Positions 2,981 to 53,260 of a DNA stretch of 64,000 nucleotides are shown here, piece by piece; the first letter of the stretch is position 1; each line of letters begins with the position of its first letter. The DNA is from the human T2T-CHM13v2.0 reference genome, Homo sapiens, in assembly GCF_009914755.1 (NCBI RefSeq), contig NC_060932.1; one strand, written 5' to 3'. The translations under genes were made by a program, and so were the position numbers. The notes under the pieces were generated by a model. The model saw only the letters and a list, made by a program, of their open reading frames with translations, ran no database searches and was not told the origin of the DNA.

Positions 2981-3689
2981 GAATAGATATTCAATATTTA
3001 CATTTGTTCCTTAAAATTTCAGAAAAGCAGAGCTCAGGGATTTTGTCTGTTGGTGTAAATGAAAAGTTCAGTAGATAACTTGGGTTGGAGTTGAAACCCA
3101 ACTAAGCTGGTTGCACAGGTGTTAACTGAAGAGCTTAAAGGTAAGAGAGTCATATAGAACAGACACGAGACCCCAAACTCCATTCCAGGGTAGAGCTAAT
3201 CTGTAAAATTGAGATTCTGCATTCTTCACTCCAATGCGAGGCAATACACTAGGAAGAAATCTCGTCCACAAAACACTCACGTTCTCAACATTACATAGTT
3301 TTGAAGGAAGATTATAAATAACAGCCTGACACTAATAGAGTGGTTTTGGAGACCAGCTGTGTGGCTAGTTACTTTAGAGAATATTTATCTCTGTACTGAC
3401 CTTCTCAGGAAGTGGATACGGAATGGAGATAGAACACTCTCCTCCCAGAGCCTGAGGTTTTGGAATTCCCTGGCTCTTCTCTATCTTCTTCTGTGTTGGC
3501 AACTTCTCTGAAAGACGTGTGAGTTACTGCAATGTTTGTGTTTCAGGAAAGAGACTATAAGCCTCCAAGACATTTGTTTCTTCAGTCCTCTTTCCCTTCT
3601 ATTCCCTAGAATCCCAAATCTGAGTACTCATGGGCTCTAAAAAGAAAAAAGCTTATTTCTACACTTGTACAGAACACTTCTGACTATGC

Positions 3690-4860: not shown

Positions 4861-5673
4861 CGCTCTCACCCAATTTAGACCTTGGGCATCTGTCTGTGTA
4901 GCCATGGAAATATTGGAGCTAAAATCTCCCAGGCAGAACTGAACATCCTTGCCAGAATTCACTTGGTTTCCCCTTTCAGGTACTGTGTTTTGATTTGAAT
5001 AGCATCAGAAACCAGATTTGAAGTTCTTCCTGCAAACTACTCTTCTGTTCCAGGGCAGAAAGAAGTTTAATGGGAGCCTTTTCCTGCCCCGGAAAATGAC
5101 TTCTTTGGGGAGAGGATGACAGCAGAGGGTCCATCTCCTTGACCCACGGCAACAGGCCCTGGTTTGGAAAAAAGCAAGGCAACAAGGAACTGTTGCTGAA
5201 CTGGTCATATCAGCTGGAACCCCTGCTCCCTTGAGGAGCTGAGGCTAGCAGTTGTGTTTGTTACTCTGTTGCTGCTGGAGATGGCTGTAGAACAGTCTAG
5301 CATTATAAGGAGCTGGGTGCGTGGGAGCTGAGAGCTCTTGACCAGTTCTGTAATTAAAAGGGGACATGCATTAAAAGCAGAGCACATCCTGCACATCCCT
5401 GGTCCTTTGCCAGGGGCCACAGATTGCATTGTCTGCACTTTGCTTCTTCACTCTGATGGGGTTTGGCAGTCTCTGGGGCAGTGGGAGGTGCAGAGCCTCA
5501 TAAATACAGTGTTTGCTTGGAAGCCCAAAGTTCCTAGGTTCTATTTCTGCTTTGGCTCCATTTAGGAACCAAACTGGAAATGGTGGCTTGATTTCCTTTC
5601 TCCAATCCTTGGGGGCCCGTGAGGACTCTTCAGATAGTGTATGTACCAAAGTCTTGCTAGAATCTCCTGTTTT

Positions 5674-5795
5674 GACTGGTTAGCTCAGCTGGTTGAAAGT
5701 GGGCATTAACAAAAGCTGAAGTGTGGGTCCTCTTCCTTTGTGGGCACGTGAGCTTTTTTCTATTTCACGGCCATGGGCTGCATCTCTGGCTCCAA
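5674..5795 (+). mobile_element. Ancient tRNA-derived SINE (MamSINE1-like)
   Basis: tRNA-Ile-like head GACTGGTTAGCTCAGCTGGTT, degenerate B box, SINE-like body. Confidence 0.55.
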
Positions 5796-16460: not shown

Positions 16461-17175
16461 ACAAAAAGAATTTTTTAAATGTACATTACCAATTTGGCAG
16501 AAGGATGTATAAATATTATGTCAGCCTTAAGACGTGATTTAATCCTGATAGATGAGTTGTCAGGGAAGGGTGACACTAATTGACAGATGTTAGCTGGCAC
16601 CTGCTATTCCCAGCGATGCACTAAGAAGGCTCTGTGGTTCTGGGTGGGTGAAAAGTCCTCGGCAGCACAGTCAAAAATGAGATTTTCTTTTCTGTCTTCC
16701 ATTGAGGAAGTCAAAGAGTGTGTTGACAGTCTGGAGGGGCCTGGGTTGGAGATGGGTAATAAATGCTTCTGGATGACCAGGTTAGCAAAAGCACCCACAC
16801 ACTTTGGGTCCCTTAAACTTCTATTGAGGGATCAACCAGAATAAGCTGGGGTTTCCTAGATTACAAGGGGCGTTTGATGATGTCAGACATTCCAGGAAGA
16901 GGAGGCTTGGGAGAAAAGTAAGAAAGGTTGAACATTTGTTTTCTGTAAAAAGAAAAAGCAAGTCAAAAAAGAAACAAAACAAAACAAAGAAAACCCACCC
17001 CCAACTCCTCCCTTCCTGGTGGGCACCTCCAGGTGTCTCTCTCCTGTCCTGGCATCCATTTGTCTCTCACAAGATTTTATAAGGGCTGAGAGGCCGAGTA
17101 GACAAACCAGTTGAAAGGAGGATAAGGAAGTGGTTTGTAAATTTGGACACAACTAGTCTTTAAAATAAGTACTGA

Positions 17176-17500
17176 GGCCAGACGCCTTGGCTCACACCTG
17201 TAATCCCAGCACTTAGGGAGACCAAGAAAGGAGGATCACTTGAGACCAGGAGTTAAAGACCAACCTGGGTGACATAGTGAGACCCCTGTCCCTACCAAAA
17301 ATACCAAAATTAGTCAGGTGTGGTGGTGTGCACCTGCTCTCCTAGCTACTCACCAGGCTGAGACAAGAGGATGGCTTGAGCCCAGGAGTTTAAGGCTGTA
17401 TTGAGCTATGATTGTGCCACTGCACTCCAGCCTGGGTGACAGAGCAGGATCCTCTCTCAAAAAACAAACAAACAAAACCTCAAAAACCAACAACAAAAAA
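17176..17500 (+). mobile_element. Alu (AluJ-like), inserted in a MER5A-like relic
   Basis: Diverged dimeric Alu with a (CAAA)n tail; it is the template for the inverted copy at 19064-19245. Confidence 0.88.
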
Positions 17501-17754
17501 CTGATGCCTGAGCCTTACTTCCAGAGATTACAGTACAGTTGGTGTTAAGTAGGAAGTAGGGCTGGGTCTTCGTATGTCTTCAAAGACTCCCAGGAAATTC
17601 TATTGAACAACCAATGCTGACAGCCACTGGGTAAAAGGCATCCACAGATGCAACTGCAATTGTAAGTACAGTTTGTATTTGAGACTAATTGCTGGTGGAC
17701 TTTCACTGTTAAGAGGGCAAAATCAGCATTTATTCTCCCATGCAGATTTCTGGG

Positions 17755-18136
17755 TGATATGGTTTGGCTCTGTGTCCCCACCCAAATCTCATCTTGAGTT
17801 GCAATTCCAATGTGTCAAGGGAGGAACCTGGTGGGAGGTGATTGGATTATGGAGGTGGTTTCCCCTATGCTGTTCTCATGATAGTGAGTGAGTCTCACAA
17901 GATCTGATGGTTTTAAAAATGGGAGTTTTTCCTGTGCTCTCAGTTCACTTCCCACCTGCCGCATGTAAGACTTGCTTGCTTCCTCTTTGCCTTCCGCCAT
18001 AAGTGTAAGTTTCCTGAGGCTTCCTAGCCATGCTTGCTGTTAAAACTGTGGAATTTTGAGTAGTTAAACTTCTTTCCTGTATAAATTACCCAGTCTTGGG
18101 CAGTTCTTTATAGCATTGTGAAAACGGACGAATACA
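17755..18136 (+). mobile_element. MaLR solo LTR (THE1D/MSTA-like)
   Basis: TGATATGGTTTGGCTCTGTGTCCCCACCCAAATCTCATC ... CGGACGAATACA; 5-bp TSD CTGGG/CTAGG. Confidence 0.9.
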
Positions 18137-18899
18137 CTAGGCTTTAAACAAATTCTCTATGTATCCCACAGTCATTCCAATGAGAAAATAGGACTTTTCT
18201 CTGTGTATCACCCTTTTCTCTCTACCCAGTCACCTCCCCAGTATGGGCTCTCCCCATGACTGAGCTGGCTGGAAACAGGTGAAGAATGCCCAGTTAGAAG
18301 ATGCCACACAATGGATCTATCCTAAATCTCTGTCCTAAATCTATCCTAAACTCCATATTGGACCCAGAGCAAGCTCAGGAAATAAGTCAAGGCTGCATCT
18401 ACAGCCTTTGCATAAATTAGGGGAGAACATACCATGGAAACTGAAATTCTTTTCCTTTCCCTTGCAGACTTTAGATAACCCTTTCCACGGGGTAGTCTGT
18501 CTGGGAAAGTTTGCATGAAGGCCAAGTCTAGGCTAAACTAGGAGCTCTTCATGTCCCAGGGCTATCGGTCCTGCCCTTTTTCTTGAGCAGTAAATAACTC
18601 TCAGCTTTGAAAAGCATGCCCTGGTGACGTGTTCATCATGGCCATGGGAGGAGCAGAGTCTGGCTGTCTGGGTGCAGAACTCAGAGCTCCAAGCCTCGTC
18701 TGACACTGATTTTCTCACCGCGAAAAATGGTGGGGACCGTGGCCCTGAGAGTGACCAAGGAAAGGATCTTATGTTTTATAGTGGATCACATGGTGCTCCA
18801 CTGAGTCCCCCTGTGCAGGGCTGATGTGCCCCCTCCCAGCTGCTAGGCATATTGGTGCAATGAATCGCAGCTGGGTCCCTCGATGGCCATCGCCTAACA

Positions 18900-19365
18900 C
18901 TGACAGGACTGCATTGCCCAAGGTTATTCTCATTTTTGGGAGGCAGCTGATGCTGGGATACAAATGTCCAGCCTACGATCCTCAATTTGGTGCACAGTGG
19001 TTTTGGAGCTTCTTAAGGTATTGGGTGAGGCCTCAGTTGCAGCTGCCTTAACCCTGCCTTCCTCCACCACACCTGACTAATTTTGGTATTTTTGGTAGGG
19101 ACAGGGGTCTCACTATGTCACCCAGGTTGGTCTTTAACTCCTGGTCTCAAGTGATCCTCCTTTCTTGGTCTCCCTAAATGCTGGGATTACAGGTGTGAGC
19201 CAAGGCGTCTGGCCTCAGTACTTATTTTAAAAACTAGTAGTGTCCTTCTCTTCAACCCTGCCTTCCTCACTTCCTCCCAGATGTGTCCCAAGCACCCTCT
19301 CAAGAAAGCTTCTGTGTGCAATTCCCCATTCACTGGAGCTGTTTCCCGGGCGCCTAAGCTAAGTG
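18900..19365 (+). mobile_element. Old ERVL LTR (LTR16-like), disrupted by a templated insertion
   Basis: 3' end ...GCAATTCCCCATTCACTGGAGCTGTTTCCCGGGCGCCTAAGCTAAG resembles LTR16. Confidence 0.45.
19064..19245 (-). repeat. 182-bp inverted duplicate of 17145-17326
   Basis: 3 mismatches in 182 bp, including 31 bp of non-Alu flank; flanked by 15-bp direct repeat AACCCTGCCTTCCTC. Confidence 0.95.
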
Positions 19366-19819
19366 ACTTTCTCATAATGGCCACTGTTTCCTTCAAGGTC
19401 AGCTTTAAGATGTGTGAAATTAACATCACCCTACAACAGTAATTTGCTTTGATAGAAGGAAAACATTGTTGTTAGACGCAAGTCTCTGACATTCATTTCC
19501 CCTCTGACAGCTATGGTTGGCCTTCCTAAGGAGGCTTGGGGAGAACCAATGGGACCACAGATGACAAAGCTGCAGTGGCTCTAGACACTTTCACCAGAAG
19601 TAACTTGAGAGACAAATTGAAGAGAAATTCCAGATGCCACGAACATGTGGCATGCTAACTGGGATTGCTGGTTGGCATGCTAAGGGGAGTTGCGAGAAGA
19701 AGAGGGGTGTGAGATTGGCAGAGATATTGAAAGAAAGTTGGAAAAGGGACAAAAAGAGGAGGGAGAAGAGGACTTTCTTAAGGGATGGGAGATTTTTATT
19801 TAATTTCCTGGATTAGTTA

Positions 19820-25549: not shown

Positions 25550-25835
25550 CTGGCTCGGTCTCTGCCAGCGTCTCGGCCTCCTCCGGCGCGGCGCGGGGCC
25601 CGGTGCTCAGCTGGTCGTTCTGCGCCCCGGCGCGGCTGCGTCCTCCCTCTGGCTCTGGCTCTGGCTCCGGCTCCGGGTCGCGCTGTCTCTGGCTGCTCGT
25701 GCGGCCGCCTTGCCGCTGCGCGCCGTCCCGCAGGATGTCCTGGATGAGGAAGGACGTGAGCGGCTTGGACGGGGTCGGCGGCGCGGCCCCCTCCGCTTTC
25801 GCCTCCCCGGGCCGCGGCTCCGGAACCCTGAGCAT
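25550..25835 (-). CDS. NKX3-1: NK3 homeobox 1, coding exon 1 (286 nt, phase-1 intron follows)
   Basis: ATG at 25835; [36 protein letters not shown] with TN/eh1 motif TSFLIQDIL and an EPEPEP run; donor CCAG|GTAAGC at 25550/25549. Residue 52 is Arg. Confidence 0.98.
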
Positions 25836-25883
25836 CCCGGCGGCCCCGCTTTGGCCTGAATGCACCCGCCCGGCCCGCACCGC

Positions 25884-25985
25884 TTTCACTTTCCGCCTCC
25901 CGGCTCGCTTATAGCCCAGGGGAGCGGGCCGCGCCGCCCTCCCATTGGCCGCGGGACGGGCCGCGCCGCGGATTGGCCGCCCTGA
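25884..25985 (-). promoter_or_regulatory. NKX3-1 core promoter (TATA-like plus two CCAAT boxes, GC boxes)
   Basis: TATAA on minus at 25913-25909; CCAAT on minus at 25948-25944 and 25976-25972; GC-rich flanks about 75-140 nt upstream of the ATG. Confidence 0.8.
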
Positions 25986-26052
25986 GCCCCAGGTGACCCC
26001 GCCGATCTGCGAGCCCTGAGCACTGCCCCGCTCCGCTCCTCCCTAGGGGATT

Positions 26053-26124
26053 CCTTCCCCAGTTCCCTCTCCTTCCCCAATTCCCTCTCCTTCCCCAATT
26101 TCCTCTCCTTCTCCAGCTCTCCTC
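26053..26124. repeat. 18-bp tandem repeat (~4 copies) in the NKX3-1 promoter
   Basis: CCTTCCCCARTTYCCTCT units at 26053, 26071 and 26089, with a degenerate copy at 26107. Confidence 0.9.
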
Positions 26125-26424: not shown

Positions 26425-27406
26425 CTGAAAGAAGGAAAACACCTTTGCCAAAGCCTTTTCCCGTTGCAGAAGTGGTTTTCTTTGGTGGTTCCTTTATCCG
26501 CAATAACCTGTTAACTTTCCTTCCTCCCCAGACACATGACATACCATCCTTTTGAAAAGTTTCCAGACGGATGGAAGGCGTTTTAGGCCAGGACAAATGC
26601 AAAAACTGCATTTAAAAAAGTAGTTCAAAAGAACATCAGCATACTCTTTTTGCAGATTACCAACTGTTAACATGTAACCCATTGGCTAAACAATGGGTTA
26701 GCCAGATTGGTCCAACCGGTACTGTGACTGGACTGGACGGTACCGTGACAACAGACGAAAGTGGAACAGAGATGATGGAAGTATTTTCTTTCCTTGTCTT
26801 TTCTCTTCTTTTTTTTACGGACAGGGTCTCCCTCTGCCGCCCAGGCTGGAGTGCAGTGATGCCATCATAACTCACTGCAGCCTCGATTTCCTGGATTCAA
26901 GTGATCCTCCTGCCTTGGCCTCTCAAAGTGCCAGGACTACAGGCATGAGTCTCAGTGTCAGGTCGATGATGGAAGTATTGAATTAATGTTAAATTTACTG
27001 AAATTGCACATTGTACTGTCAGTGTACAAGAGAATATTTTTAGGAAATAAACACTGAAGTAAGTAGGAGCAAAGGCACAAGATTTATGAAACTTACATCA
27101 AATGGTTCTGAAACAAGGATGCAGATTGATAGATCCCACGCCATAAAGCCGATGGGTTAAATGGTAACAGTTGGTAATCTGGAAAAAGGGTAGGCTGATG
27201 TTTTTTAGAACCATTTTTTTAATGCAACTTTTTTGTCTGTCCTGGTCTAAGACGGCTTCTATTCAACTGGCAACTTTTCAAAAGGATGGTATGTCATGTG
27301 TCTCTGGAGGAAGGAAAGTTAATAGGTTATTGCTGATAAAGCGACCGCCAAAGAAAACTACCTGTGCAACGGGAAAGACTTTGGCAAAGCTGGTTTTCTT
27401 CTCTCA
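26425..27406. repeat. Spaced inverted repeat: arms ~26425-26687 and ~27147-27406
   Basis: Hand alignment gives ~84% identity over ~260 bp; perfect 32-mer at 26530-26561 vs 27272-27303. Confidence 0.95.
26786..26964 (-). mobile_element. Monomeric left/right hybrid Alu with 15-bp TSD
   Basis: TSD GATGATGGAAGTATT at 26771-26785 and 26965-26979. Confidence 0.85.
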
Positions 27407-30540: not shown

Positions 30541-30546
<6 letters not shown>

Positions 30547-30590
<44 letters not shown>

Positions 30591-30601
30591 TGTGTGTGTG
30601 T
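30547..30601. repeat. (TG)n microsatellite
   Basis: About 21 pure TG units plus an interrupted tail. Confidence 0.95.
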
Positions 30602-31054
30602 CTGTATTTTCTTCCGGTCTTTGGCCATCTTCAATGGTAAGATAAATATAATTTTGTATCCTTTTTTCCTCCCAAATTCATATTACACATAAACATTTTA
30701 ACATTGCTCTATTACATGTTTTAGAAACCATCTAAGAGCTAGGAGGGACCTCAGGATTATCTAAGAAAATGTCTTGCTTTTCTAGGAAGGAGCCTTAAGT
30801 TTACAGAGATGACAAGAACTATAACAAAGTTGAGTCCCTAAACCTCTAGGCCCGTGGATGTCTCCACTGCATTACCCTCCATCCTTCCACCCACTCCACC
30901 TGCCTCCACTGCTACCCTCCAGGGTAGGAAGTACAACCAGAGCCCATAGAATTGGCCCCTATATGTGTGTTTGAAAATGCATCTGGGGTTTGTTTTAGTC
31001 AGGTATGGTAAGACACACAGACCCAGAAGTGACTCTCATGAAGGAAGAAGGTGT

Positions 31055-53210: not shown

Positions 53211-53260
<50 letters not shown>

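What the first reader, a model, noticed from the sequence alone, without database searches (positions are those of the whole stretch)
17145..19268. 182-bp inverted templated insertion copied from 1.7 kb away, with a 15-bp target duplication
Seen: 19064-19245 is the reverse complement of 17145-17326 with only 3 mismatches. It includes 31 bp of non-Alu flank (GGACACAACTAGTCTTTAAAATAAGTACTGA) and the old Alu's private mutations, has no poly-A, and stops just inside the right arm. It sits between two copies of AACCCTGCCTTCCTC (19050-19064 and 19254-19268) with an 8-nt filler TTCTCTTC. This is not retrotransposition, and a repeat annotator would hide it as an Alu fragment. Inference: a recent double-strand-break repair template switch (synthesis-dependent or Pol-theta-like) left a ~98%-identical inverted pair, a substrate for inversion of the 1.7-kb spacer and for dsRNA in NKX3-1 read-through RNA about 2.4 kb past the polyA site.
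Basis: partly seen in the sequence, partly recalled or inferred. Interest (0 to 1): 0.72.

Follow-up and report, generated by a model that had tools for sequence, protein, structure and literature searches.

The report
Inverted local templated insertion near NKX3-1
A 182-base piece of DNA (part of an old Alu repeat plus its unique flank) was copied backwards into a spot 1.7 kb away, most likely by a DNA polymerase that briefly switched templates; it is a clean example of a known kind of mutation, not a new one.

Summary
19064-19245 is the reverse complement of 17145-17326: 182 bp, 3 mismatches. It lies between two exact copies of a 15-mer, with 8 extra bases.

The 31-bp non-Alu flank occurs only at these two places in the 3.1-Gb assembly. 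The next-best genomic matches cover only the Alu part, at no more than 90% identity. The full-length Alu at 17176 onward is therefore the donor.

The best reading is a DNA template switch, replicative or break-repair. In four-point notation: leave at 19064, copy the + strand from 17326 to 17145, return 15 nt behind the departure point. That return makes the "target duplication". The 8-nt filler may be a third short jump.

Classical L1 or Alu retrotransposition fails. There is no poly(A), the Alu is truncated at its 3' end, and the donor is local. A TT/AA site at the duplication boundary keeps an L1-endonuclease variant alive as a minority rival.

"Recent" is not shown: divergence is 1.65% (95% CI 0.34-4.8%). 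A 264-kb survey found three to four more genome-unique local inverted copies, so the class recurs.

Empty site, polymorphism, inversion and RNA editing could not be tested. This is a new member of a known kind, of modest interest.

The parts
17145..17326 (+). Donor segment: 31 bp of unique flank, the Alu left arm, the A-rich linker, and the first bases of the right arm
   Evidence: 182 bp, 98.35% identical to rc(19064-19245). It sits inside a contiguous full-length Alu.
17145..17175 (+). 31-bp non-Alu flank carried along with the Alu piece
   Evidence: with up to 3 mismatches it occurs at only 2 places in the 3.1-Gb assembly, the donor (0 mismatches) and the copy (2 mismatches).
17176..17501 (+). 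Old full-length Alu with an A-rich tail; the donor element
Evidence: sequence; 17188-17477 aligns contiguously to another Alu at 20827-20540 (76%); thousands of genomic relatives, at no more than 90% identity.
17327..19063 (.). 1737-bp spacer between the two inverted arms
   Evidence: 1737 nt between arms. The sequence to the left of the insertion site (18760-19064) is single-copy in the genome apart from one weak 78% hit.
19050..19064 (+). Left copy of the 15-mer direct repeat. Its last base, C at 19064, is shared with the copy as 1 nt of junction microhomology.
19064..19245 (-). Inverted templated copy (the insertion)
   Evidence: At the one mismatch inside the Alu (17212), the donor keeps the base held by 4 of 6 other Alus and the copy is derived.
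19246..19253 (+). 8-nt filler TTCTCTTC, which does not match the donor's continuation
   Evidence: the donor continues differently beyond 17145.
19254..19268 (+). Right copy of the 15-mer direct repeat
   Evidence: The sequence to its right (19254-19560) is single-copy in the genome.
19617..19626 (-). Candidate template of the filler. It is the only other TTCTCTTCAA in the window (filler plus the first two bases of the 15-mer), also in inverted orientation, 364 bp to the right.
   Evidence: Background: 1.5% of the window's 10-mers have another copy on either strand within 400 bp, and 0.33% have an inverted one. This is suggestive only, because the framing was chosen after seeing the data.

Best explanation
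This is a germline DNA template-switch insertion: a long-range four-point event, or a miniature 'cycle of templated insertion'.

Proposed path. A 3' end being extended with + strand sense reached 19064 and came off its template. It re-paired by a single base (C:G) with the + strand at 17326, either as a fold-back on its own strand or on the sister template. It copied 181-182 nt leftwards to 17145, which made a reverse-complement copy of the Alu left half plus 31 bp of unique flank. It then came off again and acquired 8 nt. These were either untemplated or copied from 19626-19619, with AA serving as return microhomology. Finally it re-annealed to the original template at 19050, 15 nt behind where it had left. 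Re-copying those 15 nt created the flanking direct repeat.

Shown: the sequence relationships, the direction (the full Alu is the donor), the uniqueness of the donor, and the junction anatomy.

Inferred: that the template was DNA and not RNA, that all steps happened in one event, and the polymerase or pathway (stalled fork, MMBIR, or fold-back synthesis on a resected break end).

Result: a 98% identical 182-bp inverted pair, 1737 bp apart. It lies 2.4-4.5 kb downstream of NKX3-1 and inside the span of lncRNA LOC107986930.
For: 1. The copy is inverted, local and retains its donor. That is the defining output of the four-point template-switch model (PMC7954356; PMC5453318).
2. That model predicts a direct repeat when point 4 precedes point 1, and such events look like one large insertion (passages, sections 8 and S5 Fig legend). 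PCAWG 'cycles' likewise re-replicate a piece of the host (PMC7025897).
3. Junctions carry 1-nt microhomology and a short filler, with no poly(A).
4. The filler plus AA has its only other copy in the window 364 bp away, also inverted. This fits serial local switching.
5. Two of the 3 mismatches lie within 14 nt of the 17145 junction: P = 0.017 for one given end, about 0.034 for either end. This fits error-prone BIR/MMBIR synthesis (PMC4352052).
6. The class recurs locally. In 264 kb, all 3 non-self matches with at least 92% identity and at least 80 bp are local and inverted. Pairs B and C each have exactly two places in the genome. One has only a 6-bp flanking repeat and one has none, as expected if the return point varies.
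7. The target is a 21-of-25 pyrimidine tract, a plausible stalling site. The link to stalling is inference.
Against: - The donor is 1.7 kb away and the copy is 182 nt long. Published short-range screens look within tens to hundreds of nt, and MMBSearch looks within 100 bp, so this is outside the range where the model has been validated.
- Microhomology at the first switch is only 1 nt.
- The 8-nt filler needs an extra step.
- The left boundary of the 15-mer is TT/AA, which resembles an L1 endonuclease site. TTAA occurs at 0.56% of window positions. A 15-bp duplication is also a typical L1 length (recalled).
- No outgroup sequence was available, so the empty site and the single-event assumption are unverified.
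- Orientation bias in the survey is weak once older pairs are counted: 4-5 inverted against 1 direct genome-unique pair.
Confidence: 0.6

Rival explanations
1. L1 ORF2p-initiated event. The L1 endonuclease nicked the - strand at GGTT/AA (between 19049 and 19050) and the top strand 15 bp further on. The exposed ...TT-3' end primed on a local - strand nucleic acid, for example nascent NKX3-1 read-through RNA. It would have copied 8 nt at 19626-19619 (primed on the AA at 19618-19617), jumped, and then copied 17145-17326. The result would be an atypical, poly(A)-less class-1-like templated sequence insertion.
For: - There is a 15-bp duplication. Class 1 TSIPs are defined by a TSD of at least 5 bp and by insertion at 5'-TTTT/A-3' (PMC5110952).
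- The boundary reads TT|AA. The chance of that is about 0.56% per position and orientation.
- Both copied pieces have - strand sense, the sense of NKX3-1 read-through transcription (hub table).
- An AA follows the filler template, and AAA follows the donor end on the - strand. A TT-3' primer could pair with either.
Against: - There is no poly(A) tract and no polyadenylation signal at the 3' end. Both are class-1 features.
- Only 2 of the 4 T's of the consensus are present.
- L1 trans-mobilised RNAs land at distant, effectively random sites. A donor within 2 kb would be about a 1-in-a-million coincidence (4 kb out of 3.1 Gb, my arithmetic) unless local nascent RNA is used, for which I know no precedent.
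- Sister events B and C in the survey have a 6-bp repeat or none, and no TT/AA boundary.
Confidence: 0.12
2. End-joining capture of a free DNA fragment. A fragment of about 190 nt made from the neighbouring locus, such as a displaced flap, an Okazaki-size fragment or an aborted repair product, was ligated by NHEJ or alt-EJ into a double-strand break with 15-nt 5' overhangs that had been filled in.
For: - There is a filler and 1-nt microhomology at the junctions, which are the class-2 TSIP / NHEJ features.
- The 182-nt size is within the 73-414 bp range (median 191) of experimental insertions at I-SceI breaks (PMC5110952, Fig. 1 legend).
- The donor is intact, so the insert is a copy.
Against: - It needs an unexplained 15-nt staggered break. 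Class 2 events are defined by the absence of TSDs.
- Captured fragments in those studies came from distant loci, not from 1.7 kb away.
- Capture predicts either orientation, yet the three youngest local pairs in 264 kb are all inverted. With n = 3 this is weak.
Confidence: 0.13
3. Not a templated insertion at all: either two independent Alu fragments that resemble each other by chance or by gene conversion, or an assembly artefact.
For: Alu sequences are very numerous (5714 candidates). Only one haplotype assembly was examined.
Against: - The 31-bp unique flank is shared and occurs nowhere else.
- There are 18 shared private differences.
- Identity is 98%, against no more than 90% for any other scored Alu.
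- The exact 15-mer repeat brackets the copy.
- Three mismatches and a filler are not what a duplicated-read artefact would give (inference).
- Gene conversion cannot create the unique flank inside single-copy DNA.
Confidence: 0.03

Closest known systems
Template-switch mutations under the four-point model (Loytynoja & Goldman 2017, PMC5453318; Walker et al. 2021, PMC7954356). Passages seen.
   Same: A reverse-complement copy (2->3) of nearby same-chromosome sequence is inserted, and the donor is kept. It creates an inverted repeat. When point 4 precedes point 1, a direct repeat flanks the insert and the event looks like one large insertion.
   Different: Published screens search tens to hundreds of nt around the site and discard repeat-masked fragments. 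Here the donor is 1.7 kb away, the fragment is 182 nt and mostly Alu, and 8 extra nt lie between points 3 and 4.
MMBIR templated insertions (MMB-TI; Osia et al. 2021, PMC8421209) and FoSTeS/MMBIR breakpoint insertions (PMC4352052). Passages seen.
   Same: These are inverted copies of a local template. Several switches are possible, junctions show microhomology, and synthesis is error-prone near junctions.
   Different: MMB-TIs are defined with templates within 100 bp and were mostly studied as somatic or cancer events. Here microhomology is only 1 nt, there is no associated larger rearrangement, and the event is germline and old.
Cycles of templated insertions and local n-jumps in cancer genomes (PCAWG, PMC7025897). 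Passages seen.
   Same: A copied segment is inserted and the strand returns to the host, re-replicating a piece of it ('cycle'). Templates are local and the junction is inverted.
   Different: PCAWG events are somatic and involve kb-to-Mb segments detected as copy-number steps. This one is 182 bp with a 15-bp re-replicated stretch.
Templated sequence insertion polymorphisms, classes 1 and 2 (Onozawa & Aplan 2016, PMC5110952). Abstract and parts 1-2 of the text read.
   Same: A non-retroelement-defined stretch is copied into a new site while the donor stays intact. Size is similar (median 191 bp experimentally). The TSD is like class 1; the filler and microhomology are like class 2.
   Different: TSIP donors are distant, often on other chromosomes, and evidence favours RNA intermediates. 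Class 1 has a poly(A) tract and signal, which are absent here. Class 2 has no TSD, which is present here. The event therefore fits neither class.
Alu retrotransposition (TPRT); non-classical Alu insertions are recalled, not looked up
   Same: The insert is mostly Alu sequence and is flanked by a 15-bp direct repeat.
   Different: The Alu is truncated at its 3' end and lacks an A-tail. It carries 31 bp of the donor's 5' flank. It matches one neighbouring old Alu at 98% and no active subfamily.

Membership tests
Four-point template-switch event | The inserted fragment (2->3) is the reverse complement of sequence nearby on the same chromosome, and the donor is retained | tested here: met
   182 bp, 98.35% identity, inverted, donor intact 1737 bp away.
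Four-point template-switch event | Three fragments L->1, 2->3 and 4->R fully explain the derived sequence. Point 4 before point 1 gives a direct repeat. | tested here: inconclusive
   The 15-mer repeat fits point 4 (19050) lying before point 1 (19064). However, 8 nt at 19246-19253 fall outside the three fragments. A second short jump to 19626-19617 is possible.
Four-point template-switch event | Short range: the alternate template lies within tens to hundreds of nucleotides (as modelled) | tested here: not met
   The donor is 1737 bp from the insertion point. The range definition is from PMC7954356.
Four-point template-switch event | An ancestral (outgroup) sequence shows the pre-event state | not testable with these tools
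   No primate genomes are held; the own genome 'has no relatives here'. The flanks are single-copy, so there is no paralogous empty site.
MMBIR templated insertion (MMB-TI as defined for MMBSearch) | An inverted copy of at least 10 bp of a template within 100 bp, flanked by microhomology | tested here: not met
   Inverted and at least 10 bp: yes. Template distance is 1.7 kb, not 100 bp or less. Microhomology is 1 nt at one junction only.
Class 1 TSIP (L1 ORF2p-mediated) | Target-site duplication of at least 5 bp | tested here: met
   15-bp exact repeat. Definition.
Class 1 TSIP (L1 ORF2p-mediated) | Untemplated poly(A) of 10-40 A, with a polyadenylation signal just upstream | tested here: not met
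   The copy ends ...GTGTCC followed by TTCTCTTC. There is no A-run at either end.
Class 1 TSIP (L1 ORF2p-mediated) | Insertion at a 5'-TTTT/A-3' site | tested here: inconclusive
   The - strand reads CAGGGTT/AAGGCAG. Only TT/AA is present, which is 2 of the 4 T's.
Class 1 and class 2 TSIP | The donor lies in a distant genomic region | tested here: not met
   The donor is 1.7 kb away on the same strand of the same chromosome.
Class 2 TSIP (DSB patch) | No TSD; junctions show microhomology, microdeletion or non-templated bases | tested here: not met
   Filler and 1-nt microhomology are present, but so is a 15-bp duplication.
Alu retrotransposon insertion | The 3' end of the Alu with its A-tail abuts the target duplication, and the sequence matches a source subfamily rather than one neighbour's flank | tested here: not met
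   The copy stops a few bases into the right arm, has no A-tail and includes 31 bp of unique 5' flank.

The most novel reading that the evidence does not exclude
Kilobase-range inverted template-switch insertions of 100-260 bp may be a much commoner germline mutation class in primates than current catalogues show. Existing screens look only within about 100-200 nt and discard repeat-masked fragments.

In 264 kb around NKX3-1 I found this event plus 3-4 further genome-unique local inverted copies, with identities from 84% to 96%. If that density held genome-wide, it would mean on the order of 10^4 such events. Each would create a long dsRNA-capable and inversion-capable pair. Here, one pair sits just downstream of NKX3-1 and another just upstream.
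Probability: 0.2. Interest if true: 0.55.

Novelty: new member of a known kind. Interest (0 to 1): 0.3.

Why it matters
As a single locus it matters little. It is a neutral-looking intergenic or intronic insertion, and the mutational class (templated insertion by template switching) is well described.

Its value is as a very clean, fully resolved example at a scale that published screens do not cover: 182 nt copied from 1.7 kb away. It shows that a flanking 'target-site duplication' plus Alu content can mimic retrotransposition.

It also leaves a 98% identical 182-bp inverted pair, with a longest perfect block of 114 bp, next to a prostate tumour-suppressor gene. In principle that pair could give dsRNA in read-through or lncRNA transcripts, or mediate inversion of 1.7 kb. 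Neither was tested.

The small survey hints that the class is locally frequent. That could be tested genome-wide with existing ape T2T assemblies.

Tried and rejected
1. Extended homeology beyond the copy. The donor's purine-rich upstream flank resembles the pyrimidine-rich target and was picked up by the aligner. It is not significant: 235 of 5000 random 45-mer pairs and 592 of 5000 shuffles score at least as high. I rejected it as a driver of the return switch.

2. Paralogous empty site. Both flanks of the insertion are single-copy in the genome (1 match, self; self plus one 78% hit of 76 bp). No paralogue can stand in for an outgroup.

3. A longer target duplication, 18 of 19 with one indel, was suggested by blastn (19047-19064 vs 19250-19268). 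It is less parsimonious than an exact 15-mer plus an 8-nt filler, so I did not adopt it.

4. A better donor elsewhere in the genome: none was found. Caveat: one search scored only 40 of 5714 candidates. The exhaustive pattern search for the flank covers this gap.

Density estimates therefore rest on 264 kb that includes the pre-selected window.

7. Literature on this specific locus. A search for 'NKX3-1' plus 'templated insertion' returned 0 papers. I did not search other wordings, so this is weak evidence that the locus is undescribed.

8. Survey pairs dropped as ordinary repeats. L021:1649-1879 belongs to a dispersed family with full-length relatives elsewhere. L020:7518-7690 is a direct pair of a dispersed family.
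Full report
**Observation.** The repeat finder lists an inverted pair at 17132-17326 / 19064-19258. A local alignment trims it to 17145-17326 against the reverse complement of 19064-19245: 182 bp, no gaps, 3 mismatches at 17151, 17158 and 17212 (98.35% by blastn).

The 15-mer AACCCTGCCTTCCTC is exact at 19050-19064 and 19254-19268. Shuffles expect 0.18 matches in the window with up to 2 mismatches, and 0 of 100 shuffles reach the 3 observed. Eight bases, TTCTCTTC (19246-19253), lie between the copy and the right 15-mer. They do not match the donor's continuation.

C19064 belongs both to the 15-mer and to the copy, so the left junction has 1 nt of microhomology. Neither end of the copy has an A-run.

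**Is it more than chance, and which copy is the donor?**
- The 31 bp at 17145-17175 precede the Alu. Allowing 3 mismatches, they occur at exactly two places in the 3.1-Gb assembly, the donor and the copy; the reversed-pattern control gives 0.
- A whole-genome search with the insert returned self, then the donor at 98% over query 25-206. All further hits were 80-90% identical and restricted to the Alu part. Only 40 of 5714 candidates were scored.
- Against six of those Alus, donor and copy share 18 private differences over 142 comparable columns.
- In the window's self-comparison, the other 95 of 96 HSPs of at least 100 bp lie in the identity bins from 70% to just under 90%. This pair alone is at 98%.
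- The donor piece sits in a contiguous full-length Alu with an A-rich tail (17188-17477 aligns end to end with another Alu). The copy is a fragment that stops where other Alus continue.
- The sequence on both sides of the copy is single-copy.

So 17145-17326 is the donor and 19064-19245 is an insertion into unique DNA.

**Age.** Three differences in 182 bp is 1.65%, with a Poisson 95% CI of 0.34-4.8%. That is near or above my recalled figure of about 1.2% for human-chimpanzee divergence. The event is young relative to the Alu, which differs from other Alus by about 15%. It is not demonstrably recent or human-specific.

One caveat cuts the other way. Two of the three differences lie 6 and 13 nt from the 17145 junction: P = 0.017 for one given end, about 0.034 for either. 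Replicative repair synthesis is reported to be error-prone (PMC4352052, Discussion passage). Those two differences may therefore date from the event itself, which would make it younger.

At the third difference the donor keeps the base held by 4 of 6 other Alus, and the copy is derived. No outgroup genome was available, so the empty site could not be checked.

**Mechanism.** The anatomy maps directly onto the four-point template-switch model:
- point 1 at 19064 (departure);
- point 2 at 17326 (re-pairing);
- point 3 at 17145 (second departure);
- point 4 at 19050 (return).

Walker et al. state that the 2->3 fragment appears as reverse-complement sequence. They also state that events with point 4 preceding point 1 exist, generate a direct repeat, and look like one large insertion in a normal alignment (PMC7954356, passages). 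PCAWG's 'cycles of templated insertions' likewise return to the host and re-replicate a segment (PMC7025897). On this reading the 15-bp 'target duplication' is re-copied template and not a staggered cut.

The filler may be a third, very short jump. TTCTCTTCAA (the filler plus the first two bases of the 15-mer) has one other copy in the 64-kb window on either strand. It lies at 19617-19626 on the - strand, 364 bp away and also inverted. Only 1.5% of the window's 10-mers have any second copy within 400 bp, and 0.33% have an inverted one. I chose the 10-mer framing after seeing the data, so I treat this as suggestive.

The target is a 21-of-25 pyrimidine tract. Its link to polymerase stalling is inference. 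Whether the switch happened at a fork, in MMBIR, or as fold-back synthesis on a resected break end cannot be told from sequence.

**Rivals.**

*L1 endonuclease / reverse transcription.* The 15-mer's left boundary is TT|AA; the - strand reads GGTT/AAGG. TTAA occupies 0.56% of window positions. A TSD of at least 5 bp and a TTTT/A site are class-1 TSIP features (PMC5110952). Both copied pieces have the sense of NKX3-1 read-through RNA.

Against this, the poly(A) tract and signal that define class 1 are absent. L1 trans-insertions have distant donors, whereas this donor is 1.7 kb away. Sister events B and C show a 6-bp repeat or none, and no TT/AA. I give this about 0.12.

*End-joining capture of a free fragment.* This fits the filler, the microhomology and the size; experimental inserts are 73-414 bp with a median of 191. 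It needs an unexplained 15-nt stagger, does not explain the local donor, and predicts either orientation. I give this about 0.13.

*Chance, gene conversion or artefact.* Excluded, apart from a raw-read check I could not make.

Ordinary Alu retrotransposition fails every test: the Alu is truncated at its 3' end, there is no A-tail, and the donor's flank is included.

Exactly three non-self matches reach at least 92% identity over at least 80 bp. All three are local and inverted:
- this one;
- pair B: L016:4987-5092 / 5661-5766, 106 bp, 96.2%, arms 568 bp apart;
- pair C: L022:2606-2734 / 3410-3538, 129 bp, 93.0%, arms 675 bp apart.

B and C each have exactly two places in the whole genome. In B the right arm is bracketed by GCTTTC ... 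AT-GCTTTC. In C the left arm interrupts an Alu, is followed by about 8 extra bases, and has no clear duplication (the Alu and MIR contexts are from recall).

A more sensitive pass listed 7 pairs of at least 50 bp whose arms are otherwise unique within the 264 kb. Whole-genome checks gave these results:
- D: window 26426-26687 / 27147-27406, inverted, 84%, genome-unique.
- E: L014:4767-4989, inverted, 87%. Half of it is a dispersed repeat and half is unique; only the local partner matches full-length.
- One inverted pair that is an ordinary dispersed family.
- One genome-unique direct pair at 85%.
- One direct pair of a dispersed family.

The tally is 4-5 inverted local copies (including this one) against 1 direct. 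The class recurs here over a long time span. With these numbers the orientation bias is only a hint, and the sample includes the pre-selected window.

**Consequences.** An RNA of either strand spanning 17100-19300 is predicted to pair the two arms in register: 179 and 181 of 182 pairs. Arm-arm cofold energy is about -363 to -370 kcal/mol. This follows from the sequence and is not evidence of expression.

Per the hub table, the + strand lies within the span of lncRNA LOC107986930, and the - strand lies 2.4-4.5 kb past the NKX3-1 3' end. The longest perfect identity block is 114 bp.

In this haplotype the donor Alu is contiguous across 17326/17327. The spacer is therefore in the arrangement it had when the copy was made. 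Inversion polymorphism, gene conversion and A-to-I editing could not be tested.

**Comparison and novelty.** It works like a four-point / MMBIR-type templated insertion. It fails the range criteria of the published detectors: tens to hundreds of nt in one, within 100 bp in the other. One screen's repeat-mask filter would also have removed it (PMC5453318 Methods passage).

It fits neither TSIP class. A search for 'NKX3-1' with 'templated insertion' found no paper, and I searched no other wording.

I class it as a new member of a known kind, at the long-range end of that kind. Interest is modest. The most novel reading left open is that such kb-range inverted switches are far more frequent in primate germlines than is catalogued.

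**Limits.** Only one assembly was examined, with no outgroups, no population data and no RNA data. Papers were read as passages or parts as stated above, and no supplements were opened. Alu and MIR identities, the human-chimpanzee divergence figure, typical L1 TSD lengths and Pol-theta insertion sizes are recalled, not computed.

Noticed in passing
L016:4987-5092 and L016:5661-5766 (chr8 about 45 kb right of the window): This is a second local inverted copy: 106 bp, 96.2% identity, arms 568 bp apart, with only these two places in the genome. The left arm continues into older repeat-like context and looks like the donor. The right arm is bracketed by GCTTTC ... AT GCTTTC, a 6-bp repeat plus a 2-nt filler. 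An Alu poly-T starts immediately after the left arm.
   Followed up: partly
L022:2606-2734 and L022:3410-3538 (chr8 about 103 kb right of the window): This is a third local inverted copy: 129 bp, 93.0% identity, arms 675 bp apart, with only these two places in the genome. The left arm sits inside an Alu right arm and so looks like the insertion. About 8 extra bases follow it, and there is no clear flanking duplication.
   Followed up: partly
window 26426-26687 and 27147-27406: This is an older genome-unique inverted pair: 262 bp, 84% identity, 460-bp spacer. It lies 0.5-1.5 kb upstream of the annotated NKX3-1 start (25884) and next to the RefSeq silencer 25556-26065. Its origin and any regulatory role were not examined.
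   Followed up: partly
L014:4767-4989 and its partner about 2 kb to the right (big coordinates 88767-88989 / 90972-91202): This inverted pair is 223-231 bp at 87% identity. The first 103 bp belong to a dispersed repeat family (2765 candidates), while the other 120 bp match only the local partner. The architecture is the same as the main finding: a repeat fragment plus unique flank.
   Followed up: partly
L018:5946-6089 and about 1.85 kb to the right: This is a genome-unique direct (not inverted) local duplicate: 144 bp at 85% identity. It is the only direct one found in 264 kb.
   Followed up: partly
window 19050-19278 (excluding the insert): The insertion site is a pyrimidine-rich tract: 21 of 25 bases on the + strand once the insert is removed. 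This is a possible non-B DNA or stalling context; it was not tested.
   Followed up: no
window 30543-30605 and 53213-53257: These are two simple-sequence tracts that match each other at 95-100% over 42-45 bp in several registers. They are ordinary microsatellites and unrelated to the finding.
   Followed up: no
window 17055-17069 and 19606-19620: This is a 15-nt inverted match with 1 mismatch (I5). It lies directly beside the candidate filler template at 19617-19626. It is probably chance, since repeat finder lists several pairs of similar size, but the adjacency is unexplained.
   Followed up: no
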